Origin: Deltaproteobacteria bacterium
GTDB taxonomy: Bacteria; Desulfobacterota; Binatia; HRBIN30; JACQVA1
Direction of reading: 5' to 3'
Length of the DNA stretch: 64,000 nt
Assembly (NCBI GenBank): GCA_016178705.1
Contig: JACOST010000032.1
Span: forward strand, 152,448-216,447
The translations under genes were made by a program, and so were the position numbers. Below the pieces are notes generated by a model. The model was not told the DNA's origin, made no database searches, and was given only the letters and a program-made list of their open reading frames with translations. Position 1 is the first letter of the stretch; every line of letters starts with the position of its first letter. Below are positions 10,961 to 51,793 of this stretch, piece after piece.

Positions 10961-11653
10961 TCACGGCGCGACGCGCCATTGCTCCCACACCTTCCACAGG
11001 AGCAGCTTCTGATACTCGAAGATCACTCGCCGGACGAAGGCGCGGTGATGCCACCAGGTGGCGGGATCGTAGGTGTCGAAGGGCGACGCACAGACGGTGA
11101 ACTGCACACTGTTGCCGGCCACCGAGCGAAAAATCATTCCGGCTCGGCGCGCGTGCAGCTTCGACGTCACCAGCAGCACGCGGTGAATGCCGGCGTGGCG
11201 CAGGAACGCCACGGCGATTTCTGCTTCGCTGCGCGTGCTCGTCGCATGGCCCGGTGCGGTGACAATCGCGCTTGCCGGCACGCCGAACTGGGTCGCCACG
11301 GAAACATTCACATCGTGACGATCGGGGACCTCGACGCCACGGGCGCGTGCTGCCGCCACACCAGGCGCCTCGTCTTCACGCGTCAGCACGATGGCTGGCG
11401 CCAAGCCGCCGCGATACAGCTCGACGGCTTCGAGCATCCGGTCGGGCACCGAGCCTGACACCACGACGATGGCTTCGGCGCGATCACGCGGCTCGTCGAC
11501 GACGAGATACGCCCCGACCGCGGTCAGCAGCGGCTGCCGCATCCACCACGCGGCGACCGCGAGCGCGAGCCACACCATCCCGCCCGCAACGACACCGCCG
11601 CGCCAACGCCGGCGATGAATGCGACCCACATTGCTTGGATCCGCTGCCTGCAT
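10961..11653 (-). CDS. YdcF/ElyC-like DUF218 protein
   Basis: 230 aa; N-terminal TM helix then AIVVVSGSVPDRMLEAVELYRGGLAPAIVLT..VTSKLHARRA, typical of DUF218. Confidence 0.75.
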   Translation of the reverse strand: MQAADPSNVGRIHRRRWRGGVVAGGMVWLALAVAAWWMRQPLLTAVGAYLVVDEPRDRAEAIVVVSGSVPDRMLEAVELYRGGLAPAIVLTREDEAPGVAAARARGVEVPDRHDVNVSVATQFGVPASAIVTAPGHATSTRSEAEIAVAFLRHAGIHRVLLVTSKLHARRAGMIFRSVAGNSVQFTVCASPFDTYDPATWWHHRAFVRRVIFEYQKLLLWKVWEQWRVAP

Positions 11654-15500: not shown

Positions 15501-15527
15501 AATCAGAGCCACGCGCAGTTGAATCAT
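12504..15527 (-). CDS. secreted ELWxxDGT-repeat protein (about 17 repeats) with Pro/Thr linker and C-terminal dockerin-like double EF-hand
   Basis: True start at M369 of ORF 12504..16631 (MIQLRVALIALTLALGTPLLAHGA signal peptide, GGAGGA SD upstream); repeated ELWKSDGTxxGT..VKDI.PG; PTATPTQTPTPTRTPT linker; GDCGHDGAVTVEELVLGVNIALG + DGDQSGDVTVDELVVGVNNALG. Confidence 0.85.
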   Translation of the reverse strand: MIQLRVALIALTLALGTPLLAHGASAPYLVKDINPQPSGIGVADTGAVGDTVFFAGNDGVHGVELWKSDGTAQGTVLVKDINPNGESRPSGFINVNGTLFFSATVDATHVGLWKSDGTSNGTVLVKTIIPNSLTNVNGVLYFSGSDGVSGNELWKSDGTEAGTVLVKDIVPGGLGSFPSGLVNVGGALLFVARVGTGFGLWKSDGTDAGTVLLQSFPPNLLRVGPSGLSAAGNLLFFQTLGANGSTFDLWVSDGTTGGTNAIANFPLFPIAYGAGAVGSTFFFSAAVDQTTSGLWKSDGTTTGTVVVKSFAQSPFAFTDVNGTLFFAAFSATGSDLWKSDGTEAGTIPLTNHGSIQSSAAGSFSKLGSTVFFVNSDSTHGTELWKSDGTVNGTVLVKDIYPGAANSNPSNLIVANGRLFFAATDPLSATELWTSDGTDAGTHLVKDVYPGTADSIPDSLTNFAGKLFFSARNAGDASQRVPEYDLWTSDGSDAGTMQVKDIQPPNTSPPAGLTVFNGALFFSAIEFTHGRELWKSDGTEAGTTLVKDIRPGTVDSAPISFTIAGGWLFFYANDQVHGYELWKTDGTTDGTVLVKDIHPGSSGSNDNPSFPPVMAAVGNLLYFTADDGTTGIELWRSDGTDAGTIQVKDIAPGSLASIPKNFVPIGTTLFFTTVATFNGGFGRDLWKSDGTPAGTVLVKDIHPGGSGGGVAELVNLNGTLLFTANDGINGSELWRSNGTDAGTTMVKDIAPGATGSNPTGFTNVNGTLFFSANDGTTGIELWKSDGTSTGTVLVKDINPGAGHSFPSSLTNVSGTLYFDANDGVHGTQLWRSDGTDAGTVPIAAIAGYNFRVSANHLFFVVNDGIHGIELWAIDLSVPDAPTATPTQTPTPTRTPTGMVIATPTVTTTGLASFTSSPTATTAGAGATPTATPTTPGASPTPTTTGGPACVGDCGHDGAVTVEELVLGVNIALGTVPLENCPEFDGDQSGDVTVDELVVGVNNALGECA

Positions 15528-15964
15528 TCCTTCCTCCTGCAGATCGACTCGAACCGACTGCGACCGCACCCATGCGCCACCACGACCCCGTACAGACACA
15601 GCCGCGGCTCTTGTATCCTCAAGCAGCGTCGTTTTTCCAGTACGAAACAACGACGGCCCAGACGGCTCAGCTCTTACTCGCGCCGGAAGGCGTACGCGCA
15701 TGCCGGCGCGCATCGCGTCGTTCTGTGGGCGCTCGCCGACGAGTGCGCTCAACTGGAAGTGTTCCGCAAGCGCGTCGTGCCACTGCTCGATGGTTAACGG
15801 ACGTAGGCTGACGTGAGGGGTCCGCCTGCGTGCCGTGACCGGTGAGTCTCGATCGTGATCCGTAGCTCCGACGCCATCCTGTGCGATCGGCGGCTTGCTG
15901 GGCGAGATGCGATTGCTCACGTTGCTCGCACGCTTACGATTTATCTCTCCGCGACGAGCACCGC

Positions 15965-17014
15965 TCAAGGTGCCGCCGCACGCTGTTCCGCGCGATGAAT
16001 GAAATCGCGTACCACCTTGAGGTATTTGTCCGACTCTTCGAAGAACGGCGTGTGGGCACTCTTCTCGAAGATCACCATCTCTGACCCCGGCAGCGCGTTG
16101 TGGCACAACGCGGTCGCACGCGGGCTGGTCTCGTCGAAGCGCCCCGCGATGTAGAGGGCAGGAGATTTGATTTCCTTCAGGCGCGCGGTCTGGTCCCAGT
16201 CTTTCAGGTTTCCGGTGCAGGTGAACTCGTTGGGACCCTGCATCGTGACGTAGACCGCTTCGTTGGCTCCAGCGAACGCGCGTTCGAGGGCGTCGGGCCA
16301 CACCGCAAGCCTGCACACATGCCGCTTGTAATACTCGAGGACGGCGCTCTGGTATTCGGGGCACTGGGTGTATCCGCCCGCTTCGTGACGGTCCAGGGTG
16401 GCGCGCGTAGCGGCGGGAAGTTCCTTGCGATAGGTGGCCGCGTCGCGCGACCATTCGGGGAACGAGCACAATGGGTTGGAGAAGATCAGACTCACGACAC
16501 CATCGGGCTGCGTGAGTGCATAGTCGGTCAGCAGCATCGAGCCCCACGACTGCCCGAGAATATGCGCGCGCTTCAATCCGAGCGCACTGCGAAGTTCTGC
16601 GAGCTCCTCGACGAAGCGGTCGATCGTCCACAGCGACTTGTCATCCGGGTGATCTGATTTTCCCGAGCCGAGTTGGTCGTAGAAGACCACCGGTCTTTCG
16701 TGGCACAACACGCCAATCGGTTCCAGGTAGTCATGCGTGAATCCTGGGCCGCCATGCAGTACGATCAGCGGCGTCGCATCGCCGTCACCAACAATTTCGT
16801 ACCAGACCTTGCCGCCCGTGACAGTGACGGAGCCCTCTCGCACCGCGCATCCGAACGGGAATTGTGAATTCTCCGCCCAGGCGATGCTTGCGAGCGTGGA
16901 AAGGCTCACCACCAGGATCACTAGCAGCGCTCTCGTCGTCGGGCGCGAGCACTCACTGAACATTGGGTTTTCCTTTCCAGAACTTGAGCGCTTATCGCGC
17001 ACGCGCGAACTCAA
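15965..17014 (-). CDS. secreted proline iminopeptidase-family alpha/beta hydrolase
   Basis: 349 aa; PLIVLHGGPGFTHDYLEP and nucleophile elbow GQSWGSMLL; hydrophobic signal segment; start may be M18 (16963). Confidence 0.8.
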   Translation of the reverse strand: MSSRVRDKRSSSGKENPMFSECSRPTTRALLVILVVSLSTLASIAWAENSQFPFGCAVREGSVTVTGGKVWYEIVGDGDATPLIVLHGGPGFTHDYLEPIGVLCHERPVVFYDQLGSGKSDHPDDKSLWTIDRFVEELAELRSALGLKRAHILGQSWGSMLLTDYALTQPDGVVSLIFSNPLCSFPEWSRDAATYRKELPAATRATLDRHEAGGYTQCPEYQSAVLEYYKRHVCRLAVWPDALERAFAGANEAVYVTMQGPNEFTCTGNLKDWDQTARLKEIKSPALYIAGRFDETSPRATALCHNALPGSEMVIFEKSAHTPFFEESDKYLKVVRDFIHRAEQRAAAP

Positions 17015-25616: not shown

Positions 25617-26621
25617 TCACGCCACCGGTTCGGATTGCGCCTCACCCCTCGCACGCAATACGTCTTCGATCCGCACGCCGGCGAACGGCAGCGCGATCAC
25701 TCCTTGGCCGATCAAGCTCGCGAGCTGAATTGCGTTGAGCACCACTCCGTAGGCGAGGGCGTCAGCCGCCGGCACGCCGAACAATGCGAGCGCGAGCTGA
25801 CAGGCGTACTGGTACGTCCCGATCATACCCGGCGCTTGCGGCAGGGCAGTGCCAAAACCAATGAAGATGAACACGATCACGGCGGCGTTGAAGGGCACGG
25901 CGAAGCTGAAGGCGCGGATGACGACGTAGCTCGATAAGATCGGCAGGAACCACAGCGCCAGCGACATCACGAACACCAAGCCGAGCAGTCGCCGGTCGGG
26001 CAGGATCTGCATGCCGGCGACGACCGCCTTGAGGAACCGCATCAGCCCGACGCCGAAACGCTCGGGAAGCAACCGCACGACCGCGCGCTCGAAGAACGCT
26101 TCACCACGCCACCACAAGAGCAGCACCAGCGTCACCAACACTGCGGCGCCCACGGCTGGGAACAACGCGCCGCGCCGTACCCACACCGGTAGATCGGCGG
26201 TCGTCAGCAGGCCGAGCAGGATGTAGAAAAGGATGACCACCGAATCCATCGTCTTCTCGACCACGAGATTGCCGACAACGTTGGAGAAGCTCACCGCGCT
26301 ACGGCGCGACAGCAGCCATGGCCGCACTACTTCACCCATGCGCGCCGGCAACACGTTGATGGCCATGTACGCGACACTGGTGATGACCCATAGCGGAGCC
26401 AGCGCGATGTGGGTCAGTGGCCGTAGCTCCAACTGCCAGCGCCAGGCGCGAAAGATTTGCAACATAATACTGATGGCAAACGCCGGCACCAACCACCGCG
26501 CATCGAAGCGGCCGAACGCGGCGCCGAGATCCGCCAACGGCACGTTGCGAAACGCAAGATAGAGGAACAGCGCGCTGACGACGAGACTGAGGACGATGTT
26601 GCGGAACGTGCGTGCGTTCAT
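25617..26621 (-). CDS. UPF0104 / lysyl-PG-synthase-TM-family (flippase-like, HpnL-like) membrane protein
   Basis: Start at M44 (MNARTFRNIVLSLVVSALFLYLAF..RAWRWQ); about 8 TM helices; the upstream ORF extension is made of repeat sequence. Confidence 0.75.
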   Translation of the reverse strand: MNARTFRNIVLSLVVSALFLYLAFRNVPLADLGAAFGRFDARWLVPAFAISIMLQIFRAWRWQLELRPLTHIALAPLWVITSVAYMAINVLPARMGEVVRPWLLSRRSAVSFSNVVGNLVVEKTMDSVVILFYILLGLLTTADLPVWVRRGALFPAVGAAVLVTLVLLLWWRGEAFFERAVVRLLPERFGVGLMRFLKAVVAGMQILPDRRLLGLVFVMSLALWFLPILSSYVVIRAFSFAVPFNAAVIVFIFIGFGTALPQAPGMIGTYQYACQLALALFGVPAADALAYGVVLNAIQLASLIGQGVIALPFAGVRIEDVLRARGEAQSEPVA

Positions 26622-26677
26622 GCGTGCCAGAACCTGCCCCAGGTGAGGGTTTGGCGCAAGCTCAGCCTTGTCCGACT

Positions 26678-26759
26678 GTAGGGGCGACGCATGCGTCGCC
26701 CGCGAACTAGCAGGTTCGCCACGGTTGAAGACGGAGGGCGATGCATGCATCGCCCCTAC
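26678..26759. repeat. 82-nt composite element: two 24-nt units (GTAG + perfect 20-nt palindrome) inverted, 34-nt spacer
   Basis: gtaggggcgacgcatgcgtcgccc (26678-26701) and gggcgatgcatgcatcgcccctac (26736-26759); same 24+34+24 architecture at 60557..60638. Confidence 0.7.
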
Positions 26760-27888: not shown

Positions 27889-28344
27889 TTAGCGGTGAGC
27901 GGCGGCGCTCGCCGGCGCTCGCAGCGGCAAGGTCATGATGATCGCGTCGTCACCCTGACCATAGTAGTTGCGGCGCACGCCGCGATCGGTGAAGCCCAGC
28001 TTGAGATAGAGCGCGCGCGCCGCCTCGTTGCCGTGGCGCACTTCGAGCGTGACCGAATCCACTCCCGCAGTGCGCGCTTCGGTGATGACCGACTCGACCA
28101 GTAAGCGACCGACGCCGCGCCCGCGATGCGCGGGATGCACGGCGAGGTTCAAGATGTGACCCTCGTCGCCCACCAACCAGCGGCACACATAGCCCAGCGT
28201 CGTGCGGGTGCCGTTGGTGGCGCGCACGAGGGTGACGCGCGAGAACGGCACCTTCAGCTCGTGCAGAAACAGCCCCGGCGTCCACGGCTGGGAGAACGAG
28301 CGGCGCTCGATCTCCATCACATCGGCGAGATCATCGGCGCGCAT
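27889..28344 (-). CDS. rimI: ribosomal-protein-alanine N-acetyltransferase (GNAT)
   Basis: ATG at M149 of ORF 27889..28788 (alternative GTG at 28365); MEIERRSFSQPW, LAVHPAHRGRGVGRLL, LEVRHGNEAARALYLKLGF. Confidence 0.8.
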   Translation of the reverse strand: MRADDLADVMEIERRSFSQPWTPGLFLHELKVPFSRVTLVRATNGTRTTLGYVCRWLVGDEGHILNLAVHPAHRGRGVGRLLVESVITEARTAGVDSVTLEVRHGNEAARALYLKLGFTDRGVRRNYYGQGDDAIIMTLPLRAPASAAAHR

Positions 28345-28373
28345 CGGCGCGAGGTTGAGTTCCACGCAGTCCC

Positions 28374-29384
28374 CTACCAGCGGATCAAGGCGGACGCCCA
28401 GGTGAAGCCGGCACCGAACGCCGCGAGGCAGAGCAGCGAGCCGTCCCGCACCCGCCCGGCTTCCAGCGCTTCGGAGAGCGCGATCGGAATCGACGCCGCG
28501 GTGGTGTTGCCGTAGCGCTCGATGTTGGTGAACAGTTTCCCCTCCGGCAACTCCAGTCCCATCGTCACCATCTGGCTGATGCGCTGATTGGCTTGGTGCG
28601 GAATGAGCAGATCTATGTCCGCGACCGTCAGCCCGTTGGTATCGAGCGCTTCCCGAATGACCTCCGGGAAGCGAGTGACCGCGTGGCGAAAGACTTCGCG
28701 GCCTTTCATCTTCGGAAAAATCCGCGCGTTGGTGATCATCTCCTCGGTCAGGCGTGGCCGCTCGCGGCTTCCCGGACTTTCGAGCCACAACATCTCAGCG
28801 TACTTGCCGTCGGCGTGCAGATGCGTCGACAGGATGCCGCGCGTACGATCGTCCGATGGTCCGATCACCAGCGCGCCCGCACCGTCGCCGAAGATCACCC
28901 CGACCTCGCGGCCCCGCGTGGTGAGTTCGATGCCGGTAGAGTGAATCTCACCGCCCACCAGCAGCACATAGTCACACGTGCCGTTCTTGATGTACGCATC
29001 GGCCGTCGCCAAGCCATAAATGAATCCCGAGCACTGATTGCGCACGTCGAACGCCGGCATGCCTGACATCCCCATACGCGCCTGCAGCACGCACGCCGAA
29101 CTCGGCATGTCGTAGTCGGGGCTGAGCGTGCAGAAGATCACCAGGCCGATTTGCTCGGTCCGCACCCCGGCGCGCTGCAACGCCTCGGTGGCGGCGATTG
29201 CGCCGAGATCGGCGGCGCCGACATCGTCGCCACTGAAGTGACGCTGTTTGATGCCGGTGCGCTGCTGAATCCATTGGTCCGACGTCTCCATGCGCCCGGC
29301 GAGGTCGTTGTTCGTCACGACGAGATCGGGCACGTGGCGCGCGACGCTCAGAATCCGCGAGTTGCGTCCTCCAGTCTGGCTCAT
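28374..29384 (-). CDS. beta-ketoacyl-ACP synthase III (FabH-like), canonical Cys-His-Asn
   Basis: ATG at M19 of ORF 28374..29438; RNQCSGFIYG (Cys), LIPHQANQRI (His), YGNTTAASIP (Asn); ATGA overlap with the upstream gene. Confidence 0.85.
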   Translation of the reverse strand: MSQTGGRNSRILSVARHVPDLVVTNNDLAGRMETSDQWIQQRTGIKQRHFSGDDVGAADLGAIAATEALQRAGVRTEQIGLVIFCTLSPDYDMPSSACVLQARMGMSGMPAFDVRNQCSGFIYGLATADAYIKNGTCDYVLLVGGEIHSTGIELTTRGREVGVIFGDGAGALVIGPSDDRTRGILSTHLHADGKYAEMLWLESPGSRERPRLTEEMITNARIFPKMKGREVFRHAVTRFPEVIREALDTNGLTVADIDLLIPHQANQRISQMVTMGLELPEGKLFTNIERYGNTTAASIPIALSEALEAGRVRDGSLLCLAAFGAGFTWASALIRW

Positions 29385-30310
29385 AGCTGCACCACCGCGG
29401 CGCCCCAGGCGAAACCAGCGCCGCACGCCGCCAAGCACACCTTCGCGCCGGGACCGACTGCGCCCGCCGTCATCGATATGCTCAAACTCACGGGCACCGA
29501 CGCCGCGGCAAGATGGCCGACCTCACGGCTGGGATTGCTGAACCGACTGGCGATGCCCATCTGTTCGGCCACACGATCGGCGACTTCCGGGAAGACGTGG
29601 GCGATCACGAAGTGATCGATGCCGTCGCGCGGTACCCCGGCCTTCGCAAGCGCCTCATCGATCACCACGGGAAGCGTGACCAGACCGAAGTCGCGCACGA
29701 CGTCGAAGTCGAGCGTGGGGAAATGAACCCGCTGCTCGAAGTTCTCCAACGTCACCCGCACCGGGTGCTGGCGACTCGATGGATACTCGCACCAGAAGCG
29801 ATCGTACTGTCGCCCATCGCTGTGAATCACCACCGAGCGCACGCCCGCATCGCCGCTACCCGGACCCAGCACCGCCACCGCGCCACCGTCGCCGAACAGC
29901 CGCGCCACTCGCTCGCCGCCTTCAGAGTAATCTAGTCCAGGAGAGATCACCTCAGCGGCGACCAACAGCACGCGGCGATACGTTCCCGCCCGGATGAACT
30001 GATCGGCAACCGAGAGACCGAACAGAAAGCCCGCGCACTGCCCGCGCACGTCGAGTGCGCCGACGGTTCCGCATTCGAGTTTGTGCTGGAAGAAACACGC
30101 CGCACCCGGGAATGTCACGTCCGGGGTCATGGTCGCAAAGATGATGAAGTCGACCGCGTCAGCGGTCACGCCCGCTTGCGCGAGTGCGCTGCGCGCGGCC
30201 GGCAGAGCCATATCGGAGGCGCCGCCCGTCGGCGCAATTGGCCGACGAACGCCGGCGATGTCGGCCAGCGGCGCGAGATTGTGGCTCAGCCCCTGCAGGG
30301 CGGTGCGCAT
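29381..30310 (-). CDS. divergent KAS III-like condensing enzyme, N-terminally short, altered catalytic residues
   Basis: 309 aa; RGQCAGFLFG keeps the Cys; PHQAN replaced by AHVFP; GNT replaced by GHL; GAGFAWGAAVV C-terminus. Confidence 0.75.
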   Translation of the reverse strand: MRTALQGLSHNLAPLADIAGVRRPIAPTGGASDMALPAARSALAQAGVTADAVDFIIFATMTPDVTFPGAACFFQHKLECGTVGALDVRGQCAGFLFGLSVADQFIRAGTYRRVLLVAAEVISPGLDYSEGGERVARLFGDGGAVAVLGPGSGDAGVRSVVIHSDGRQYDRFWCEYPSSRQHPVRVTLENFEQRVHFPTLDFDVVRDFGLVTLPVVIDEALAKAGVPRDGIDHFVIAHVFPEVADRVAEQMGIASRFSNPSREVGHLAAASVPVSLSISMTAGAVGPGAKVCLAACGAGFAWGAAVVQL

Positions 30311-30316
30311 ACTCGA

Positions 30317-31696
30317 TTACTTCAACAGCACCACTTCGAGCGTACGGTCGACGAAGCGATGCTTGAAGCCGGCCACCGGGGCCGGCAGCTTGATGTGAGT
30401 GGTGAAGTCGGGCGGAAACGCCGGCGAGACCGCCGCCAGCTTGCGCAAAACAGGATCCTCCACCCGCCCCTTCACGATCAAGTACCCACCCTGTAACGCC
30501 AGATCGTAATCGTAGTCCGGCATGTCGTCCGGAACGCCGAACTGGTCCTTCAACGCGGAGTGCGGCACCGTGCGGGGAAATTCCAGCCGCAGCAGGAAAC
30601 CGTTGCCCTGCTCGGTGAGCGTGTAGACCTCGCCGTAGCGTTTCTCGCGTTCCTGCTTGTCTTCGAACTCGCCGCCGTGAAAGCCATCGACCGGCGATGT
30701 CCCGACACTTTCGGCGGTCTTGAGCATACGAGTCAGCGGCACGAACAGTGCGGCCAGCGGCGGCGCGTACAGTGCCGCGCGGAAGCGGACTTGATCCAAC
30801 GGCGCGGCGCGAAAGATCGCTTCGCGCATGCGCCAGATCGCTTCGAAGGCCGCCATCGCGAAGCCGAGGACGATCAGCGAACTGAGCTCGTCGCTGAACA
30901 CGTTGCGCTTGAGTGCAAACGCGCCGACAGCCACCATCACCGCCGGATAGATGATCATGTTGTGAAGGATGTTGAGCCCGGTGGCGCCGGCGGCGGTGAA
31001 GAAGCGCTTGTCACCGACCGCGGCTTCGATGCGCTGCTTCTGACCGAACGGCAAGGCCCCGAGCAGCGGCTGCGCCAGCGCGGCGAACCATTTGAAGCCG
31101 CGCGAACCAGAGCGCGGCGCATTCAGCATCGCCGCCGCTTCTTCGAAGTTGATTTTCAATTCGCCTTGGAAGGCCTTGAGCATACGCGGCTTGCGCGGCA
31201 CCCGGACGCTCGCCGGCCTCGGCCCGGAGAGTGCCTTCTCGACGCGGGCACCAATCACCGCGGGCGCCTTGGCCGCGGGGGCGGCGGCCGCCTGAGTCGC
31301 CGGCGCCGGAGCCGCTGCTGCGGCCGGGGCCGCTGCCGGCACCCCTTCAACGGCATGCCCATTCCCCTTCCTGAACCGCGACGGGTAGTCGGGCGGGAAC
31401 TCGGTGCCCGGATGCAACTCGCGCGCGCGCGCAATCAACACCTCATCGACCTCCGGACGGGCCGGATCGGGGATGCAGCAGTCCACCGGACACACCGCCG
31501 CGCAGGCTTCGTGATCGTGGAAGCCGACACACTCGGTGCATTTTTCGGGAACGATGAAGAAGATGTCCTGCGCAACCGCCGGGTGCTTCGCGTCGTTCAG
31601 GTCCCACTCCACCCCACCCTGATAGATCGCGGTGTTGGGACATTCCGGTTCACACGCGCCGCAGTTGATGCACTCCGACGTAATTACGGTCGCCAT
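30317..31696 (-). CDS. fusion protein: YfhL-type 2x[4Fe-4S] ferredoxin + Ala/Pro linker + multi-TM region + C-terminal alpha-crystallin/Hsp20-like domain
   Basis: 459 aa; CINCGACEPECP and CTECVGFHDHEACAAVCPVDC; AAPAAAAAPAPATQAAAAPAAKAP linker; about 4 hydrophobic helices; C-terminus FLLRLEFPR..YLIVKGRVED..FTTHIKLPAPVAGFKHRFVDRTLEVVLLK. Confidence 0.7.
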   Translation of the reverse strand: MATVITSECINCGACEPECPNTAIYQGGVEWDLNDAKHPAVAQDIFFIVPEKCTECVGFHDHEACAAVCPVDCCIPDPARPEVDEVLIARARELHPGTEFPPDYPSRFRKGNGHAVEGVPAAAPAAAAAPAPATQAAAAPAAKAPAVIGARVEKALSGPRPASVRVPRKPRMLKAFQGELKINFEEAAAMLNAPRSGSRGFKWFAALAQPLLGALPFGQKQRIEAAVGDKRFFTAAGATGLNILHNMIIYPAVMVAVGAFALKRNVFSDELSSLIVLGFAMAAFEAIWRMREAIFRAAPLDQVRFRAALYAPPLAALFVPLTRMLKTAESVGTSPVDGFHGGEFEDKQEREKRYGEVYTLTEQGNGFLLRLEFPRTVPHSALKDQFGVPDDMPDYDYDLALQGGYLIVKGRVEDPVLRKLAAVSPAFPPDFTTHIKLPAPVAGFKHRFVDRTLEVVLLK

Positions 31697-32230: not shown

Positions 32231-34819
32231 TCAGCTCCCGACAAAGATCCGGCGCGCGGTCGCGAAAGTGTCCTGCGGAGTCACGACGCCGTCGCCGTTG
32301 GCATCAACACCCGCGGCGGCCGCAAAGGTGCCCCGCCCGACATCTTCGACACGGTGACTGTCACTGTCTGTGACCTGCCGCTGCGCCGCCACCAGATCCG
32401 CGGCGGAGACCCGTCCATCGCCATTGCCGTCGCCGCGCAGCACCGGTGTCGCACCCGAGTTGTTGAGGGCCGACACATTCATCGCGGTCGAAGCGTTGCC
32501 GGTTGCAACATCGTAGCGTCCGTCGGCGTTGAAGTCGGCCGTAACGATTGCCTTCGGTTGGCGGCTGATCGTCACACTGCCGGCGCGCATCAAGCGCCCG
32601 GTTTGGGTGTTCACCAGCACGGTCACGTCGTTCGACACTTGATTGGCGACGACGATGTCGGGCCGCCCGTCACCATTGAAGTCGCGGGCAACGATCCCCG
32701 ACGGGGTACTGCCGGCTGCGGGTGGGAACGTCGGAATCGTGAAGCTGCCCATGCCGTTGCCGGTGTACACTTCCACGCGCTGGCCGGTGGCCGTCGCCAC
32801 CGCGAAGTCATCGAAGCCATCGCGATTCAAGTCGAGGGTCGCGAGCGCCACTGGATTCATCCCGACCGGCACCACCGAGCCGGTGTGAAAGGTGCCGTTG
32901 CCATTGCCAAGCAGAACCGACACGTTGTCGGAGCCGCTGTTGGCAATGGCGAGATCCTCGAAGGCGTCACCGTTGAAGTGCCCGACCACGATGGCCACCG
33001 GCGTGTTGCGGACACCCGTCGTGCCTGCGCTGTGCAACGTGCCGTCGCCGTTGCCCAACATCACCGTGACAGAGCCCGGCTCACCGATGGACACAAGGGC
33101 GATGTCCGGGATGCGATTGTTGTCGAAGTCGCCGACGACACCCGCTACCGCGTGAGCCGTCGTGGCAATGACCGCCTGCGAATCGAACGTGCCGTCACCA
33201 TGACCCAACAGCATCGAGATGCTGCCGGTGCCACCATTCACGGTGGCCAGATCGAGCTTGCCGTCGCGATTGAAGTCGGCCGCGACCGCCGCGCTCGGGT
33301 TGCTGTCTACCTCGATGTCGCTGCCCGCGAGAAATTTGCCGTCCGCTCGCGCCAGATACAAGCGCGCGCGACTGCTCGTATCGGCTCCGAAGGTGACCGC
33401 GATGTCCGGCAAGCTGTCACCATCGAAGTCCCCTGCCACCATGCCAGAGACCGTCGAGCCGACCAAGATGTCTTCAACGCCCAGCAAACGCCCGGGACTG
33501 CGATTGAGCAGCACCGCCACGTCGGGGCCTTGGGTTGCCTGGTTGCCGGTGACCACGTCGGGCTTGCCGTCACCGTCGAGATCACCGACGGCCACCACGA
33601 GCGGCTCTCCATCCGCCACGAACGTGCGGGCGGTCGCGAAATGTCCGCGCCCGTCGCCTAACAACACACTCGCATCGGTGCTCCGGCTATTGCTCGTGAC
33701 AATGTCGAGATGATTGTCACCATTGGTGTCGGTGACCACGACGTCCGACGGCGTATTGCCGGCTGCTAGGGTCGGCCCAACGGTGAAGTGTCCCTGCCCG
33801 TCTCCGAGCAACACCACCAGACCGGTCGGTACCGCGACGATCAAGTCACGCCGGGTGTCTTCGTTGACGTCGCCGCCGGCGGCGGCGGCGGGTGCCGTTC
33901 CTATGTTCGTGTCGATGCGCGGCATGAAGTTTCCGTGTCCATCGCCGAGAAACACCGAGACGGTCTGACTGGCGCTGTTAATCGCCACGACATCGGGCTT
34001 GGTATCACCATTGAAGTCACCGATGACGACGGCGTTGGTCTTGGAACCCGCCGCGCGGGTCGTGATCCGCCCGAAGGTACCGTCGCCATTTCCGAACAGG
34101 ACACTGACCTTGCCGTCACCGTCGCCGTTACCTTCGCTGACCACCGCCACGTCGATGTGTCCATCGCCATCGAGGTCGGCCGCGGCCACGGCCCCGGGGC
34201 CCGCAATCGTGTTGCACGTCCCCACGCCGGCTACGCGACATTCGTCCATGTCGCCGGTCAACTGTGGGTTGCAGCGCCGGCTGAAATCCCCCGTACACAC
34301 ACCACCGAGCACAAACGTCAACGGGCTGCATGTGCCGACGCTGTCCAGCTCGCATTCATCGAGACTGCCGGAATCCATCGAGGGCTCGCACTCCCTGCTG
34401 GTGTCGCCCGTGCAGTAGTAGTGAAAGCATACCGGGTCACCGTTCGGACACGGATCGCTAAAGCGCTTGAGGACCGATACGGTCGACACGTTGGCATTGG
34501 AGACCACGACATCGGGATTGTGATCCCCGTCCATGTCGGCGATCGCCAACCCCATCGGCACCGTGCCCGCGTTGAACTTCGGGAACGAGAACACGTTGCC
34601 CATGCCGTCGCCCGTCAAGAGCGTGATCGACGCACTATCGGAGTTCGCCGTGATCACGTCCAAGTGGCCATCCTTGTCCATGTCGGCGATCGCGATCGCC
34701 GAGGGCCGGCCATCGGTTCCCGTGGTCACAGCCGAGTCGAAGTTCGCCGTTTGCGCCCCCACCCATACCGGCACCAACAGCACGCCCACACCCACCAGCC
34801 TCGTACGAAACCGCCACAT
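32231..34819 (-). CDS. secreted FG-GAP/VCBS-repeat (integrin-alpha-like) protein with Cys-rich insert and C-terminal dockerin-like module
   Basis: 862 aa; signal peptide; more than 10 repeats of the D.DGDG..D type (ADMDKDGHLDV, GDLDGDGKPDVV, DFNGDGRPDIVV); C-terminus GDGNGDGRVSAADLVAA and DANGDGVVTPQDTFA. Confidence 0.85.
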   Translation of the reverse strand: MWRFRTRLVGVGVLLVPVWVGAQTANFDSAVTTGTDGRPSAIAIADMDKDGHLDVITANSDSASITLLTGDGMGNVFSFPKFNAGTVPMGLAIADMDGDHNPDVVVSNANVSTVSVLKRFSDPCPNGDPVCFHYYCTGDTSRECEPSMDSGSLDECELDSVGTCSPLTFVLGGVCTGDFSRRCNPQLTGDMDECRVAGVGTCNTIAGPGAVAAADLDGDGHIDVAVVSEGNGDGDGKVSVLFGNGDGTFGRITTRAAGSKTNAVVIGDFNGDTKPDVVAINSASQTVSVFLGDGHGNFMPRIDTNIGTAPAAAAGGDVNEDTRRDLIVAVPTGLVVLLGDGQGHFTVGPTLAAGNTPSDVVVTDTNGDNHLDIVTSNSRSTDASVLLGDGRGHFATARTFVADGEPLVVAVGDLDGDGKPDVVTGNQATQGPDVAVLLNRSPGRLLGVEDILVGSTVSGMVAGDFDGDSLPDIAVTFGADTSSRARLYLARADGKFLAGSDIEVDSNPSAAVAADFNRDGKLDLATVNGGTGSISMLLGHGDGTFDSQAVIATTAHAVAGVVGDFDNNRIPDIALVSIGEPGSVTVMLGNGDGTLHSAGTTGVRNTPVAIVVGHFNGDAFEDLAIANSGSDNVSVLLGNGNGTFHTGSVVPVGMNPVALATLDLNRDGFDDFAVATATGQRVEVYTGNGMGSFTIPTFPPAAGSTPSGIVARDFNGDGRPDIVVANQVSNDVTVLVNTQTGRLMRAGSVTISRQPKAIVTADFNADGRYDVATGNASTAMNVSALNNSGATPVLRGDGNGDGRVSAADLVAAQRQVTDSDSHRVEDVGRGTFAAAAGVDANGDGVVTPQDTFATARRIFVGS

Positions 34820-37440: not shown

Positions 37441-38363
37441 TCACTGTTTCCGCGCGCGAAACCACTCCACCGTCTGGCGCAGTCCTTCGTCGAGCGACAC
37501 TTCCGGACGCCAGCGGAGCACGCGGCCAGCGGCCGACGCGTCGATCACACTGCGGAGCTGCTCGCCGGGCTTGGCCGGGCCGTGCTGCGCCGGCGCACTG
37601 GAACCACACAACGGCGCCAAGCGTTCGTACAGCGTGTTCACGTCGGTCTCGCGCCCGTTGCCGAAGTTCAACGCGCCGCAATAGTCTGACTTCAACGCGG
37701 CGACGCTGGCCCGTGCGAGATCACCGACGAAGACATAGTCGCGCGTCTGCTTGCCATCGCCGTTGATGATCGGGTGCTCGCCGCGAAGGAACTTCTCGAT
37801 GAAGATGGCGATCACGCCGGCCTCACCGTGCGGGTTCTGGCGCGGGCCGTACACGTTGCCGTAGCGACAGGCGAGGTACGGGATGCCGTAGGCGGTGAAA
37901 TAGAAAAACAGATAACGCTCACTCGAGAGCTTGGCGACGCCGTACGGGCTGATCGGTGCGAGCGGATGGGTCTCGGGCGCGGGAAAGGCTTCCTGCTCGC
38001 CGTAGATCGCGCCGCCCGTCGAGGCGAAGATCACTCGCTTCAAACCATTGCGCCGCCCCTGCTCCATCAAGTTGAGCAAGCCGACGATATTGACGCGCGC
38101 GTCGAACACCGGATCGGCAACCGAACGGCGCACGTCCATCTGCGCCGCGTGGTGATTGAGCACCTCGGGCTTCTCGCGCGCGAAGAGTTCCCCAACTGCG
38201 GCGCCATCCTGGATGTCGAGTTGAACGAAGCGAGCCTTGGGGTTGAGGTTCGCCCGCTTACCCGACGATAGGTCGTCGACCACCACGACATCGTGACCCG
38301 CCGCGACGTAGGCATCGGTGATATGCGAAGCGATGAAGCCGGCGCCGCCTGTGACCACGATCT

Positions 38364-38367
<4 letters not shown>
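37441..38367 (-). CDS. NAD-dependent nucleotide-sugar 4-epimerase (GalE/UDP-xylose 4-epimerase-like)
   Basis: Start at M28 ([15 protein letters not shown]), ATGA overlap with the upstream stop; YGVAKL (YxxxK). Confidence 0.8.
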
Positions 38368-39325
<958 letters not shown>

Positions 39326-39329
<4 letters not shown>

Positions 39330-40639
39330 GACGTGACCGGAGGCCGCCCCACGGAGTAGTAGGTGAAACCGCGCTGCTTCATTTCCACCGGCTCGTAAAG
39401 GTTGCGGCCGTCGAAGATCACCGGGTGCTTGAGAAGCTGACGCATGCGATCGAAATCGGGGCGGCGGAACTCGTTCCACTCGGTCATGATCAAGAGCGCC
39501 GACGCGCCGGCGAGGGCGTCATAGTTGACGCGATGGTATTGAATGCGATCGCCGAAAATCTTGCGCGCCTCGCCGAGCGCTTCGGGATCGTGCGCGTGGA
39601 CCTCAGCGCCGGCCTTGAGCAACGAGTCGATCGCGGTGACCGCCGGCGCTTCGCGCATGTCGTCGGTGCGCGGCTTGAACGCGAGGCCCCAGACCGCGAA
39701 CTTCATCCCGCGCAGATACTCGCCGAAGTGCCGCTGCACCTTGTCGACCACGGTCTGCTTCTGGCGTTCGTTGACCGCCTCGACGGCGCGCAGCATCGCG
39801 AAGTCGAGCCCCTGATCGATGGCGGTGCGAATCACGGCTTTGACATCCTTGGGAAAGCACGAGCCGCCGTAGCCGACACCGGGAAAAAGAAAATGATGCC
39901 CGATGCGGCGATCGGAGCCGATGCCGCGACGCACGTCGCTGACATCCGCACCGACTCGCTCGCACAGATTTGCGATCTCGTTCATGAACGAAATGCGCGC
40001 CGCCAGCATCGCGTTGGCTGCGTACTTGGTCATCTCGGCGCTCGCGGTACCCATGACGAGAATCGGGTTCTCGTTACGGACGAACGGGCCGTAGAGTTCC
40101 TTCATCAACTCGATCGCCTTCTCGCTGCCGCTGCCGATCACAACGCGGTCGGGCTTCATGAAGTCTTCGATCGCCGCCCCTTCTTTGAGGAACTCGGGAT
40201 TGGAGACGACATCGAACTCGTGCCGGGTGCGCGACGCGATCACTTGCCGCACCCGTTCGGCGGTGCCGACGGGCACCGTGCTCTTGTCGACGATGACGCG
40301 ATAGCCATCCATCGCTTCGGCGATCTCGGCGGCGACGCGCATGACCGCGTGCAAATCCGCGCTGCCGTCCGAACCAGAGGGCGTGCCGACGGCGATGAAG
40401 CAGATGAGCGATTGGCGGATCGCCGCGGCGAGGTCAGTGCTAAAGGTCAGCCGCTTCTCGGCGACGTTGCGCTTGATCAGCTCTTCCAGCCCGGGCTCGT
40501 AGATCGGCACCATCCCTTGGCGGAGCTGAGCGATCTTGGCTTCGTCGATGTCGACACAGATCACATCGTTGCCGCCCTCGGCGAAGCAGGTACCCGCCAC
40601 CAGCCCGACGTAGCCAGTCCCGATGACGCAGAGTTTCAC
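39326..40639 (-). CDS. ugd: UDP-glucose 6-dehydrogenase
   Basis: 437 aa, GTG start; IGTGYVGLV, catalytic GGSCFPKD. Confidence 0.92.
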
Positions 40640-40663
40640 GTGGTGGTCTCCTCACGCCTCGGT

Positions 40664-40696
40664 GCAAAAAAGGGCCTGACGGCGCGCAGCCAAGCC
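40664..40696 (-). terminator. candidate intrinsic terminator or attenuator between the GT2 gene and ugd
   Basis: Minus-strand RNA GGCUUGGC-UGCGCGCC-GUCAGGCC (8 bp including 2 G-U) followed by CUUUUUUGC; ends 25 nt before the ugd GTG. Confidence 0.45.
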
Positions 40697-40752
40697 AGAC
40701 CCTTTCGAAGCCACCGAGACCATCAAAATCCGCCGGAGCTATAGCGGCGGGT

Positions 40753-41748
40753 CTAGGGGAAGTCAACGCGAGGTAGGGAGTTGTGCGCGTTGTCGGCGGT
40801 GCGCCCACCCGCTTCAATCACGCTTGCTACCCTATACACCGGCTTCCCTTGCGACTCGTGGTAGGTGCGCACGAGCAGCTCGCCGAGCAGGCCCATGGTC
40901 ACGAACTGGATGCCCATGATGGTGAGCAAGATGCCGAGCCACACCAGCGGACGGCCGGCGAGGCGGACATCGAAGAACAGCCGTTCAAACCCGAGCCACC
41001 CGACGATGAGTAGGCCCACGGCGGTGGCGAGCAGGCCGAAGACGCCAAAGATATGAATCGGGCGCGTCGAGTAGCTCGACATGAACTTCACCGTCACCAG
41101 ATCGAGCAACACGCGCACGACGCGCGAGAGGCCGTACTTCGACTGTCCGCGCAGCCGTGGGCGATGATTCACGGGGACCTCGACGATGCGCGCGCCAAGA
41201 TCGGCCGCCAGTGCCGGAATGAACCGGTGCATCTCACCGTACAGCCGCAGTCCGCGCGCCAGGTCGCCGCGCAGCGCCTTCAGCGTGCAGCCGTAGTCGT
41301 GCAAGCGCACGCCGGTGATGGCGCCGATAAACCAGTTCGCCGCCACCGACGGCACCCGCCGGCTCCACAACGGATCCTGCCGATTGGCCCGCCATCCGGC
41401 GACCAGGTCGTAGCCTTCATTCATCTTCGCGAGCAGCCGCGGGATCTCGGTCGGATCGTTCTGACCGTCGCCGTCCATCAGCACGACCACCTCACCCTGC
41501 GCATGCGCAATGCCGGCGGCCATTGCGGCGGTCTGGCCGAAGTTGCGACTGAGCTGCACGACTGTCACGCGCGGATCGTCGTCGTGCAGCCGTCGCAACA
41601 CCTCGAAGCTGCCGTCGCGGCTGCCGTCGTCGACGTAGATCACTTCACTCTGCTGCCCGAGCTGGTCGAGCACCGCGCGCAACTCGGCATGCAAGGGCAC
41701 GAGGTTATCGACCTCGTCGTGAACGGGGATGACGATGGAGAGATGCAT
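40753..41748 (-). CDS. GT2 polyprenyl-phosphate glycosyltransferase (ArnC/GtrB-like)
   Basis: Start at M26 (MHLSIVIPVHDE); YVDDGSRDGS, DGDGQNDP, two C-terminal TM helices. Confidence 0.85.
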   Translation of the reverse strand: MHLSIVIPVHDEVDNLVPLHAELRAVLDQLGQQSEVIYVDDGSRDGSFEVLRRLHDDDPRVTVVQLSRNFGQTAAMAAGIAHAQGEVVVLMDGDGQNDPTEIPRLLAKMNEGYDLVAGWRANRQDPLWSRRVPSVAANWFIGAITGVRLHDYGCTLKALRGDLARGLRLYGEMHRFIPALAADLGARIVEVPVNHRPRLRGQSKYGLSRVVRVLLDLVTVKFMSSYSTRPIHIFGVFGLLATAVGLLIVGWLGFERLFFDVRLAGRPLVWLGILLTIMGIQFVTMGLLGELLVRTYHESQGKPVYRVASVIEAGGRTADNAHNSLPRVDFP

Positions 41749-41853
41749 GACACCTATCGCAGATAGCCGATCGCTGATTGCGTATCGTCGGATCCCCGAG
41801 CCCGGCAATACGCCATCGGCCATCTGCCATCCGCGTTCCTCATCCCAGGTTCC

Positions 41854-51756: not shown

Positions 51757-51760
51757 GGTG

Positions 51761-51793
51761 CCCTCACCCCTGCCCTCTCCCAGAGGGCGAGGG
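51761..51793 (-). repeat. 33-nt palindromic repeat family copy at the DUF35 / thiolase junction
   Basis: ccctcacccctgccctctcccagagggcgaggg; supplies the PSPSGRGQG-TGA end of the DUF35 gene. Confidence 0.7.

What the first reader, a model, noticed from the sequence alone, without database searches (positions are those of the whole stretch)
28374..31696. Translationally coupled trio: ferredoxin-membrane-ACD fusion plus a KAS III pair, upstream of rimI-hpnH
The stops and starts are 6 nt apart (30317/30310) and then overlap as ATGA (29381-29384), so the three proteins are probably made stoichiometrically. The combination is a redox module anchored in the membrane, a canonical FabH-like enzyme and a divergent partner. 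I do not recognise it as any described pathway. Heterodimeric KAS III pairs are known from PqsBC-type systems, and FabH-like enzymes are also used for starter-unit selection. Co-orientation with hpnH and the HpnL-like gene hints at a lipid or hopanoid side-chain modification, or an alkyl-lipid pathway needing electrons.
Basis: inference. Interest (0 to 1): 0.65.

Follow-up and report, generated by a model that had tools for sequence, protein, structure and literature searches.

The report
Ferredoxin fusion and FabH pair before rimI
The three tightly packed genes are real and conserved, but they look like two separate uncharacterised modules sitting in front of the ribosomal acetyltransferase gene rimI: a membrane-anchored ferredoxin with a small-heat-shock-like tail, and a FabH enzyme paired with an unusual sister enzyme. 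They do not look like one three-protein redox-lipid pathway.

Summary
Three minus-strand ORFs sit at 31696-30317, 30310-29381 and 29384-28374, with a 6-nt gap and then an ATGA overlap. A fourth gene, rimI, starts 8 nt after the third, so the tight unit is a quartet.

Gene 1 is a YfhL/Alvin-type 2[4Fe-4S] ferredoxin, an Ala/Pro linker, a two-helix hydrophobic hairpin and a C-terminal alpha-crystallin-like fold. Gene 3 is a canonical FabH (Cys-His-Asn). Gene 2 is a conserved FabH paralogue. Its Cys is invariant, the catalytic Asn is always His, and the Trp32 CoA-adenine segment is deleted.

The neighbourhood is conserved in Binatia-like relatives, but the three genes are not one fixed unit:
- In 79 other loci the fusion is followed directly by rimI, with no KAS genes.
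- In 2 loci the KAS pair precedes rimI, with no fusion.
- hpnH adjacency appears only in the closest relative.
- No ACP, reductase or dehydratase genes are nearby.

Best reading: two independent modules parked upstream of rimI. The KAS pair is probably a FabH-type initiation module, possibly heterodimeric. The ferredoxin-ACD protein belongs functionally or syntenically with rimI.

The hopanoid and redox-lipid idea is not supported. Whether this FabH is the genome's only FabH could not be tested.

The parts
30317..31696 (-). Gene 1: a 459-aa fusion protein. It has an N-terminal 2[4Fe-4S] ferredoxin, an Ala/Pro-rich disordered linker, a helical hairpin and a C-terminal ACD-like beta sandwich.
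   Evidence: ORF and translation. More than 3000 full-length homologues of about 460 aa, with a mean column identity of 67% across 30 sequences. AF2 model.
31397..31696 (-). Ferredoxin domain (aa 1-100). It is the YfhL/Alvin type, with CxxCxxCxxxCP and CxxCx8CxxxCP motifs and a conserved PSRF tail.
   Evidence: Pfam Fer4_7/Fer4. NCBIfam NF033683 YfhL scores 82.1 bits against a cutoff of 86. The profile hits PDB 1blu, 3eun, 2fgo, 2zvs and 1rgv at E 1e-19 to 1e-11. All 8 Cys are invariant.
30812..30994 (-). Hydrophobic helical hairpin (aa ~235-295), the probable membrane anchor. With two spans, both the ferredoxin and the ACD would face the cytoplasm.
   Evidence: AF2 helices at 235-260 and 269-289. 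Kyte-Doolittle 19-residue peaks of 1.77 and 1.59 are conserved across the family alignment. The topology is inferred.
30320..30631 (-). C-terminal alpha-crystallin-domain-like beta sandwich (aa ~356-459).
   Evidence: AF2 pLDDT is 75-90 over this stretch. The top 50 Foldseek PDB hits are all small-HSP ACDs: 6l6m at E 3e-4, with TM 0.6-0.69 normalised to the target. There is no Pfam hit at E=10.
29381..30310 (-). Gene 2, here called 'KASb': a 309-aa divergent KAS III paralogue. It has a Cys92-His-His266 active site, has lost the FabH alpha1/Trp32 segment, and carries a WCEYPxSRQHP motif.
   Evidence: Pfam ACP_syn_III plus ACP_syn_III_C. TIGR00747 scores 183 bits against a cutoff of 292. Alignments. 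Census of 120 homologues: Cys 120/120, Asn to His 120/120, Trp32 segment deleted 120/120. AF2 pLDDT 92; Foldseek TM 0.9 to PqsD and FabH.
28374..29384 (-). Gene 3: canonical FabH (KAS III), 336 aa, with a Cys-His-Asn triad and Trp32/Arg36 present.
   Evidence: TIGR00747 scores 370 bits against a cutoff of 292. 274 bits to E. coli FabH 6x7r/1hn9 over the full length. Motifs NQCSGF, PHQAN and GNTTAAS.
27889..28365 (-). Gene 4: rimI (ribosomal protein S18-alanine N-acetyltransferase family GNAT). It starts 8 nt after the FabH stop and is the constant member of the block in all relatives.
   Evidence: TIGR01575 scores 121 bits against a cutoff of 86.4. All 10 downstream GNATs tested in relatives also pass. 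Synteny tallies.
30308..30319 (-). Junction of genes 1 and 2: TAA, 6 nt, ATG.
   Evidence: Sequence. The gap is 0-10 nt in L003, L014, L087 and L172, but 212 nt in L089.
29381..29384 (-). Junction of genes 2 and 3: ATGA stop/start overlap.
   Evidence: Sequence. The overlap is the same in L087 and L172. The gap is 8-11 nt in L004, L088, L089 and L171.

Best explanation
The region is the front of a four-gene block, fusion - KASb - FabH - rimI. The block is built from two separable modules that both sit immediately upstream of rimI.

Module A is a cytoplasm-facing, membrane-tethered 2[4Fe-4S] ferredoxin with a C-terminal alpha-crystallin-like domain. Its evolutionary partner is rimI, followed by carD and ispD in most lineages, not the KAS genes.

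Module B is a tandem duplicate of fabH.
- The downstream copy is an ordinary FabH. It primes type II fatty-acid synthesis from acyl-CoA plus malonyl-ACP.
- The upstream copy keeps the acyl-accepting Cys. It has swapped the decarboxylation Asn for His, giving a KAS I/II-like Cys-His-His set, and it has lost the segment that clamps the CoA adenine.
- The upstream copy therefore cannot be primed from acyl-CoA in the FabH manner.

The most likely mechanism (inferred) is that the two paralogues assemble as a FabH-like pseudo-symmetric heterodimer, or act back-to-back. This would form the initiation module of fatty-acid synthesis in this Binatia lineage. No electrons from the ferredoxin would be involved, and there would be no dedicated link to hopanoid genes.

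Shown: gene structures, domain and fold assignments, active-site states, synteny patterns.
Inferred: membrane topology, heterodimerisation, the role in primary fatty-acid synthesis, and the independence of the ferredoxin.
For: Separability:
- fusion then rimI without KAS genes in 79 loci. In the metagenome sample this was 72 of 72 loci with at least 500 nt of downstream sequence.
- fusion - KAS - KAS - rimI in 6 loci plus the window.
- KAS - KAS - rimI with no fusion within 9 kb in L170 and L171.
- carD (52 loci) and ispD (44 loci) are the next conserved genes after rimI.
- All downstream GNATs tested pass the rimI equivalog model.

The KAS pair is the most tightly conserved two-gene unit:
- It is always adjacent, in the same order, with a gap of -4 to +11 nt.
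- This holds even where the upstream copy is only 46-50% identical to the window's.
- Divergence is asymmetric: FabH is 63-88% identical and KASb 46-75% identical across the same loci.

Active-site census of KASb: Cys 120/120, Asn to His 120/120, Trp32 segment deleted 120/120. The sister family shows Cys 116/116 and Asn to His 115/116.

The downstream gene passes the FabH equivalog model and aligns end to end with E. coli FabH. KASb is confidently a KAS III fold.

No ACP, FabD, KR or DH gene is conserved near the block. hpnH adjacency occurs only in L087.
Against: - In an NJ tree of the fusion's C-terminal half, KAS-containing loci are paraphyletic. L172 branches deep, and the KAS-less loci L001, L005 and L007 are nested among them. 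The four-gene block is therefore probably old in this clade, and long co-residence leaves room for a functional tie between fusion and KAS pair. The tree has no support values.
- The gene 1 to gene 2 gap is usually 0-10 nt, which is compatible with co-translation.
- Heterodimerisation was not tested. No multimer prediction was possible with the tools.
- I could not check whether the genome has another fabH in a plsX-fabD-fabG-acpP cluster, so 'primary FAS' is an assumption.
- The rimI anchor for both modules is itself unexplained.
- The metagenome sample was seeded with a distant family member, so the 79:7 ratio is not a natural frequency. Matching contig lengths suggest at least about 27 further contigs carry both a fusion and a KASb.
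Confidence: 0.5

Rival explanations
1. The three proteins form one membrane-bound pathway. The ferredoxin supplies electrons to a lipid, hopanoid side-chain or alkyl-lipid modification started by a heterodimeric KAS III.
For: Tight packing. The four-gene block recurs in relatives as distant as 43% identity in the fusion's C-terminal half (L172) and may be ancestral in the clade. The radical-SAM gene hpnH, which needs a reductant, lies 2 genes downstream in the window and in L087.
Against: The fusion occurs without KAS genes in 79 loci, and the KAS pair occurs without the fusion in 2. hpnH and LPG_synthase_TM adjacency is limited to the closest relative. There are no ACP, reductase or dehydratase genes. 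Claisen condensation by KAS III needs no electrons (established enzymology).
Confidence: 0.08
2. The two KAS proteins work independently as homodimers. FabH is the housekeeping initiator. KASb is a separate enzyme, for example an acyl-ACP-primed condenser or a malonyl-ACP decarboxylase-type initiator. It stays next to fabH only for co-regulation.
For: KASb keeps Cys and two His, a set sufficient for decarboxylative condensation in KAS I/II (established knowledge). It lacks the CoA-adenine clamp. Its model is a complete, confident KAS III fold. KAS III enzymes are normally homodimers (PMC4807248).
Against: The order is invariant and the spacing is near zero across more than 50% sequence divergence. 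Tandem paralogues of an obligate dimer with asymmetric divergence are typical of heteromers (inference). There is no direct evidence either way.
Confidence: 0.25
3. The functional pair is ferredoxin-ACD plus RimI. The membrane-tethered Fe-S/ACD protein would be a substrate, regulator or docking partner of the N-terminal acetyltransferase. Its N-terminus, Met-Ala-Thr, is nearly invariant, and RimI acetylates an N-terminal Ala. The KAS pair would be a lineage-specific insertion.
For: Fusion then rimI in 79 loci with intergenic gaps of a few tens of nt, and a stop/start overlap in L001. M1, A2 and T3 are conserved in at least 90% of 30 sequences. Stand-alone 110-aa paralogues of the ferredoxin do not sit next to rimI.
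Against: Conserved order among housekeeping genes (rimI-carD-ispD) can persist without any functional tie. There is no biochemical precedent. Two fusion loci have no rimI within 8 kb (L007, L013).
Confidence: 0.15
4. This is pure synteny. All four genes are unrelated housekeeping genes in a long co-directional run (lepA ... secF), and close packing reflects genome compaction only.
For: The run of same-strand genes spans at least 18 kb with mixed functions: lepA, lepB, yqeY, rimI, hpnH, queA, tgt, secDF. Promoter and terminator scans show nothing above shuffled expectation.
Against: The paralogous KAS pair keeps its order and spacing across deep divergence, and fusion-rimI adjacency is near-universal. 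Both exceed what drift usually preserves.
Confidence: 0.15

Closest known systems
FabH (beta-ketoacyl-ACP synthase III, TIGR00747), the homodimeric initiator of type II fatty-acid synthesis
   Same: Gene 3 passes the equivalog model at 370 bits. It has Cys-His-Asn and the Trp32/Arg36 CoA-binding residues, and aligns over its full length with E. coli FabH. Gene 2 has the same fold, with TM about 0.9.
   Different: Gene 2 scores below the cutoff (183 against 292 bits). It has His in place of the catalytic Asn and lacks the roughly 20-residue alpha1/Trp32 segment. FabH is not normally encoded as a coupled pair with such a paralogue, and here it lies away from plsX, fabD and fabG.
PqsB/PqsC (PqsBC) of Pseudomonas aeruginosa, a heterodimer of two KAS III-fold paralogues (PMC4807248)
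   Same: Both are two adjacent KAS III-fold genes, one more degenerate than the other. PqsBC forms a pseudo-2-fold dimer that mimics the FabH homodimer, and its active subunit lacks the canonical Asn (PMC4807248). This is the best precedent for how a KASb-FabH pair could work.
   Different: PqsB has none of the three catalytic residues, and PqsC has a Cys-His dyad with Val at the Asn position. Here both subunits keep Cys and His, one is a fully canonical FabH, and the other has Asn replaced by His. There are no pqsA, pqsD or pqsE-type genes nearby. KASb is closer to FabH and PqsD (127-135 bits) than to PqsC (74-78 bits).
KAS I/II (FabB/FabF) and KS-CLF heterodimers of type II polyketide synthases
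   Same: The Cys-His-His catalytic set of KASb is the KAS I/II set. KS-CLF is a coupled pair of paralogous condensing-enzyme subunits (established knowledge; PMC8358021 for ApeO-ApeC).
   Different: KASb has the KAS III fold and sequence family, not KAS I/II. In CLF the catalytic Cys is lost, whereas here it is invariant.
YfhL / Allochromatium vinosum-type 2[4Fe-4S] ferredoxins (PDB 2zvs, 1blu, 2fgo)
   Same: The N-terminal 95 residues match the family profile and have both cluster motifs, including the long insert in the second.
   Different: Those proteins are about 80-aa soluble proteins. This one carries about 360 extra residues: linker, hydrophobic hairpin and ACD-like domain. It scores just below the YfhL equivalog cutoff, 82.1 against 86.
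Small heat-shock proteins (alpha-crystallin domain, Pfam HSP20)
   Same: The C-terminal ~105 residues fold as an ACD-like beta sandwich, and all of the top 50 Foldseek hits are sHSPs.
   Different: There is no sequence-level HSP20 match even at E=10. No sHSP N-terminal arm or C-terminal IxI tail was examined. The domain is fused to a ferredoxin and a membrane hairpin.

Membership tests
FabH / KAS III (TIGR00747), gene 3 | Scores above the curated equivalog cutoff over the full length | tested here: met
   370 bits against a cutoff of 292.1, covering residues 8-336 of 336.
FabH / KAS III (TIGR00747), gene 3 | Cys-His-Asn catalytic triad and the Trp32/Arg36 CoA-adenine site | tested here: met
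   NQCSGF, PHQAN, GNTTAAS and SDQWIQQRTG align to E. coli FabH.
FabH / KAS III (TIGR00747), gene 3 | Acts as the initiator of the organism's type II FAS (only fabH, or linked to plsX/fabD/fabG/acpP) | not testable with these tools
   No FAS genes occur in the 64-kb window or in the flanks of relatives.
FabH / KAS III (TIGR00747), gene 2 (KASb) | Scores above the curated cutoff | tested here: not met
   183 bits against 292.1. The best NCBIfam hit, PRK09352, scores 186 against 249.
FabH / KAS III (TIGR00747), gene 2 (KASb) | Cys-His-Asn triad | tested here: not met
   Cys is kept in 120/120, Asn is replaced by His in 120/120, and a His lies one position after the FabH His in 119/120.
FabH / KAS III (TIGR00747), gene 2 (KASb) | N-terminal alpha1 segment with Trp32 that stacks on the CoA adenine | tested here: not met
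   The segment is deleted in 120/120 homologues. In the sister family the segment is present but without Trp.
PqsBC-type heterodimeric KAS III | One subunit lacks all catalytic residues and the other has a Cys-His dyad without Asn | tested here: not met
   Both proteins keep Cys and His, and gene 3 has the full triad. The PqsBC features are taken from PMC4807248.
PqsBC-type heterodimeric KAS III | The two paralogues form a stable heterodimer | not testable with these tools
   Only single-chain structure prediction was available. Adjacency and coupling are conserved.
PqsBC-type heterodimeric KAS III | Embedded in an alkylquinolone cluster (pqsA, pqsD, pqsE) | tested here: not met
   The neighbours are yqeY, rimI, hpnH, argS, pyrD and carD.
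YfhL-family 2[4Fe-4S] ferredoxin (NF033683) | Two cluster-binding Cys motifs and a score above the cutoff | tested here: inconclusive
   All 8 Cys are invariant and there are strong PDB profile hits. The score of 82.1 bits is just under the cutoff of 86.
Small HSP / alpha-crystallin domain (Pfam HSP20) | Sequence match to the HSP20 profile | tested here: not met
   No Pfam family at E up to 10 for the C-terminal 284 or 107 residues.
Small HSP / alpha-crystallin domain (Pfam HSP20) | ACD beta-sandwich fold | tested here: met
   The top 50 Foldseek hits are all sHSP ACDs, with probability 0.98-1.00 and TM 0.36-0.69, mostly 0.5-0.69, normalised to the target. The model's pLDDT is 75-90 in this stretch.
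RimI (TIGR01575), gene 4 | Scores above the equivalog cutoff | tested here: met
   121 bits against 86.4. Ten orthologous neighbours score 90-134 bits. The actual substrate was not tested.
Hopanoid side-chain gene cluster (hpnH and partners) | Conserved linkage of the block to hpn genes across relatives | tested here: not met
   hpnH follows the block only in the window and in L087. It is absent from L003/L004, L014, L088, L089 and L170-L172.

The most novel reading that the evidence does not exclude
KASb and FabH form an obligate heterodimeric KAS III for primary fatty-acid synthesis. One subunit would be a classical acyl-CoA-primed Cys-His-Asn site. The other would be a Cys-His-His site that cannot bind CoA and would have to be loaded from ACP or from its partner. 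This would be the first heteromeric FabH in a housekeeping pathway. A bolder extension is that the ferredoxin-ACD protein and RimI, which share the same locus, tether or regulate this enzyme at the membrane.
Probability: 0.3. Interest if true: 0.6.

Novelty: new variant of a known kind. Interest (0 to 1): 0.42.

Why it matters
Two large protein families without any functional annotation come out of this locus.

1. A KAS III paralogue with a KAS I/II-like Cys-His-His site and no CoA clamp, always encoded just upstream of a canonical fabH. If the two form a heterodimer, it would change the picture of how fatty-acid synthesis is initiated in Binatia, an uncultured but abundant soil and groundwater lineage. 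It would also add a second, mechanistically different example to PqsBC.

2. A membrane-tethered ferredoxin with an alpha-crystallin-like domain (more than 3000 homologues found), almost always encoded next to rimI. This hints at an unstudied link between an Fe-S protein and N-terminal acetylation or ribosome maturation.

Neither point bears on hopanoids as proposed. The practical consequence is to redirect any experiment from a 'redox lipid pathway' to two separate questions.

Tried and rejected
- Hopanoid link. I checked the flanks of 9 relatives with the KAS pair. hpnH and LPG_synthase_TM follow only in L087, so the link is rejected.
- ACP, reductase or dehydratase genes nearby. None are conserved. 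An SDR lies upstream on the opposite strand in L087 only.
- Pfam and NCBIfam on the fusion's C-terminal 284 aa gave no family.
- Literature searches found nothing describing these proteins. The searches covered FabH heterodimers, Cys-His-His KAS III, ferredoxin-ACD fusions and Binatia lipids.
- RNA evidence for co-transcription. No RNA runs hold the sequence. It occurs in groundwater DNA metagenomes.
- Promoter and terminator scans gave nothing above shuffled expectation.
- Rfam found no RNA family in the window.
- The genome-contig scan keyed on the ferredoxin motifs. It mostly returned stand-alone 110-aa ferredoxins and other fusions, useful only as a negative control for rimI linkage.
- The housekeeping-fabH test was not achievable.
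- Multimer prediction of KASb plus FabH was not possible. Only single chains can be submitted, and concatenated sequences are not accepted.

Full report
**Observation**

The minus strand between 31696 and 28374 carries three ORFs, of 459, 309 and 336 aa.
- The first ends in TAA, and 6 nt later the second starts with ATG.
- The second's TGA overlaps the third's ATG as ATGA (29384-29381).
- Eight nucleotides after the third gene's TAG, a GTG at 28365 opens rimI. The tightly packed unit therefore has four genes, not three.
- A good Shine-Dalgarno sequence (AGGAG) precedes only the first gene.
- The block sits in a long co-directional run: lepA, lepB, an FG-GAP protein, yqeY, [block], hpnH, an LPG_synthase_TM protein, queA, tgt, yajC, secD, secF, recJ.
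- The window comes from a groundwater metagenome, and its closest named relatives are Candidatus Binatia MAGs.

**Gene 1, the fusion**

- Residues 1-95 are a YfhL/Allochromatium-type 2[4Fe-4S] ferredoxin. All eight cluster cysteines are invariant in 30 homologues.
- An Ala/Pro-rich, disordered linker follows.
- Two hydrophobic helices come next, with Kyte-Doolittle peaks of 1.77 and 1.59 that are conserved in the family. As a hairpin they would leave both ends on the cytoplasmic side. This is an inference, though it fits a ferredoxin that has no export signal.
- Residues ~356-459 are modelled with pLDDT 75-90 as a beta sandwich. All of its top 50 Foldseek hits in the PDB are alpha-crystallin domains of small heat-shock proteins.
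- No Pfam or NCBIfam model covers the last 284 residues, even at E=10.
- The family is large, with more than 3000 hits, and is nearly always about 460 aa.
The ACD rests on fold evidence only.

**Genes 2 and 3, the KAS pair**

Gene 3 is a textbook FabH.
- TIGR00747 scores 370 bits against a cutoff of 292.
- It aligns over its full length with E. coli FabH at 274 bits.
- It has Cys-His-Asn and the Trp32/Arg36 CoA-adenine site.

Gene 2 (KASb) is a FabH paralogue, 33-41% identical to its neighbour. It scores below every curated KAS III cutoff.
- It is not N-terminally truncated, as a first reading suggests. It has an internal deletion of about 20 residues that removes FabH helix alpha1 with Trp32.
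- In 120 homologues the catalytic Cys is invariant, the Asn is always His, the Trp32 segment is always missing, and a His lies one position after the FabH His in 119.
- A WCEYPxSRQHP motif is characteristic.
- Its AF2 model is confident (pLDDT 92) and superposes on PqsD and FabH at TM about 0.9.
- At 50% clustering the KASb type is essentially one cluster. Its sister clusters, also from Binatia, keep the N-terminal segment but without Trp, and again have Cys plus Asn to His (115/116).

KASb is thus a constrained, probably active enzyme with a KAS I/II-like Cys-His-His set in a KAS III fold. It cannot bind acyl-CoA in the way FabH does.

**Synteny**

I looked at 172 loci.
- The same four-gene block occurs in L003/L004, L014, L087, L088 (fusion frameshifted), L089 and L172. 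Fusion identities go down to 43% and KASb identities down to 46%.
- Matching contig lengths between the hit lists of the fusion and of KASb suggest at least about 27 more such contigs.
The neighbourhood is conserved.

The three genes are nevertheless separable.
- I ran a metagenome scan seeded with the fusion's C-terminal half, with a distant member placed first. All 72 loci with at least 500 nt of downstream sequence have rimI immediately after the fusion and no KAS gene.
- Overall, 79 loci are fusion-rimI, 6 (plus the window) are fusion-KAS-KAS-rimI, and 2 have the fusion alone.
- Two loci (L170, L171) have KASb-like - FabH - rimI - pyrD - carD with no fusion within 9 kb.
- After rimI the commonest genes are carD and ispD.
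- All ten downstream GNATs tested pass the rimI equivalog model.
- Stand-alone 110-aa paralogues of the ferredoxin are not next to rimI.
- hpnH and the LPG_synthase_TM gene follow the block only in the window and its closest relative, L087. Elsewhere the followers are argS-SPOR-trpE, pyrD-carD or unrelated genes.
- No ACP, FabD, ketoreductase or dehydratase gene is conserved nearby, and the 64-kb window has none.

**Direction of change**

I built an NJ tree of the fusion's C-terminal half. It has no support values.
- All KAS-containing loci fall in one of two major clades.
- Within that clade they are paraphyletic. L172 branches deep, and the KAS-less loci L001, L005 and L007 are nested among them.
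- The simplest reading is that the KAS pair entered the site between fusion and rimI early in this clade and was later lost or moved in some lineages.

**Mechanism**

Shown:
- two separable modules with rimI as the fixed point;
- a canonical FabH;
- a Cys-His-His paralogue that lacks the CoA clamp;
- a near-invariant order and a gap of -4 to +11 nt between the two KAS genes across deep divergence;
- asymmetric divergence, with FabH at 63-88% identity and KASb at 46-75% over the same loci.

Inferred:
- KAS III enzymes are obligate dimers whose acyl pocket is completed by the partner subunit. Tandem paralogues of that kind often heterodimerise. PqsBC shows that a KAS III heterodimer can mimic the FabH homodimer (PMC4807248).
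- I therefore favour a KASb-FabH heterodimer, or two enzymes acting consecutively, as the initiation module of type II fatty-acid synthesis. The ferredoxin would play no part.
- The alternative, that KASb is an independent homodimeric enzyme, is nearly as likely.
- The ferredoxin-ACD protein's own role is unknown. Its conserved tie is to rimI. I rate a substrate, regulator or docking relationship as possible but unproven.

**Comparison with known systems**

- Gene 3 is a member of FabH.
- Gene 2 is not. It fails the model cutoff, the triad and the CoA site.
- The pair works most like PqsBC but is not a member of that family. Both subunits keep Cys, one is fully canonical, and no pqs genes are present.
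- The fusion combines a YfhL-like ferredoxin (borderline on the equivalog score) with an ACD-like fold that has no HSP20 sequence signal.

**Limits**

- I could not test whether the genome has another fabH, whether the two KAS proteins bind each other, or whether the four genes are co-transcribed. No RNA runs hold the sequence.
- The 79:7 ratio reflects how the scan was seeded, not natural frequencies.

**Verdict**

This is a new variant of known kinds: a FabH paralogue pair and a ferredoxin fusion. It is of moderate interest, and the redox-lipid and hopanoid pathway idea is unsupported.

Noticed in passing
window 12504-16631 (-); the real start is probably near 15550: A large secreted protein with about 25 tandem 'ELWxSDGTxxGT' repeats, a Thr/Pro-rich linker and a C-terminal dockerin-like module. 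It has no Pfam hit at 1e-6. The long GTG ORF includes an implausible Arg-rich leader ahead of a clear signal peptide (MIQLRVALIALTLALG...).
   Followed up: partly
window 32231-34819 (-): An 862-aa FG-GAP repeat protein with a weak C-terminal Dockerin_1 match. It is wedged between lepB and yqeY in an otherwise housekeeping run, and is the second dockerin-tailed repeat protein in the window.
   Followed up: no
L020:3245-5593 and L030:8001-9339; compare window 25617-26750: Stand-alone 110-aa paralogues of the ferredoxin domain (same PSRFRK tail) are followed by an LPG_synthase_TM-family gene similar to the one downstream of hpnH in the window. In L030 the two overlap. L020 comes from the same MAG as L087, so that genome has both the fusion and a free ferredoxin. 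Only 2 of about 70 loci show this, so it may be chance.
   Followed up: partly
L018, L019, L021, L025, L028, L046 (match start 8001 in each): The same ferredoxin domain also occurs fused to a different C-terminal extension, a charged, coiled-coil-like stretch that gives 265-284 aa in total. The ferredoxin therefore recruits several different tails.
   Followed up: no
L090-L168, L001, L005 (downstream of the fusion): A conserved order of fusion - rimI - carD - ispD occurs across many metagenomic lineages. In the Binatia loci L170-L172, pyrD is inserted after rimI.
   Followed up: partly
No HpnL-specific model hit was returned.
   Followed up: partly
window 50617-52192 (-): A thiolase-fold 'lipid-transfer protein' (SCP-x/BbsB-like), followed by a 142-aa ORF in the position where a DUF35-type partner is usually found. 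This is a second pair of thiolase-superfamily genes in the window, unrelated to the finding.
   Followed up: no
window 37441-41823 (-): A sugar-nucleotide cluster just upstream of lepA: UDP-glucose dehydrogenase, two NAD-dependent epimerase/dehydratases and an ArnC-like family-2 glycosyltransferase. It may act in lipid-linked sugar modification.
   Followed up: no
window 11536-11623 (-): ARAGORN calls a tRNA-Arg(gcg) inside the 5' end of the DUF218 ORF at 10961-11653. The ORF probably starts further downstream. Rfam found no family at gathering score anywhere in the window.
   Followed up: no
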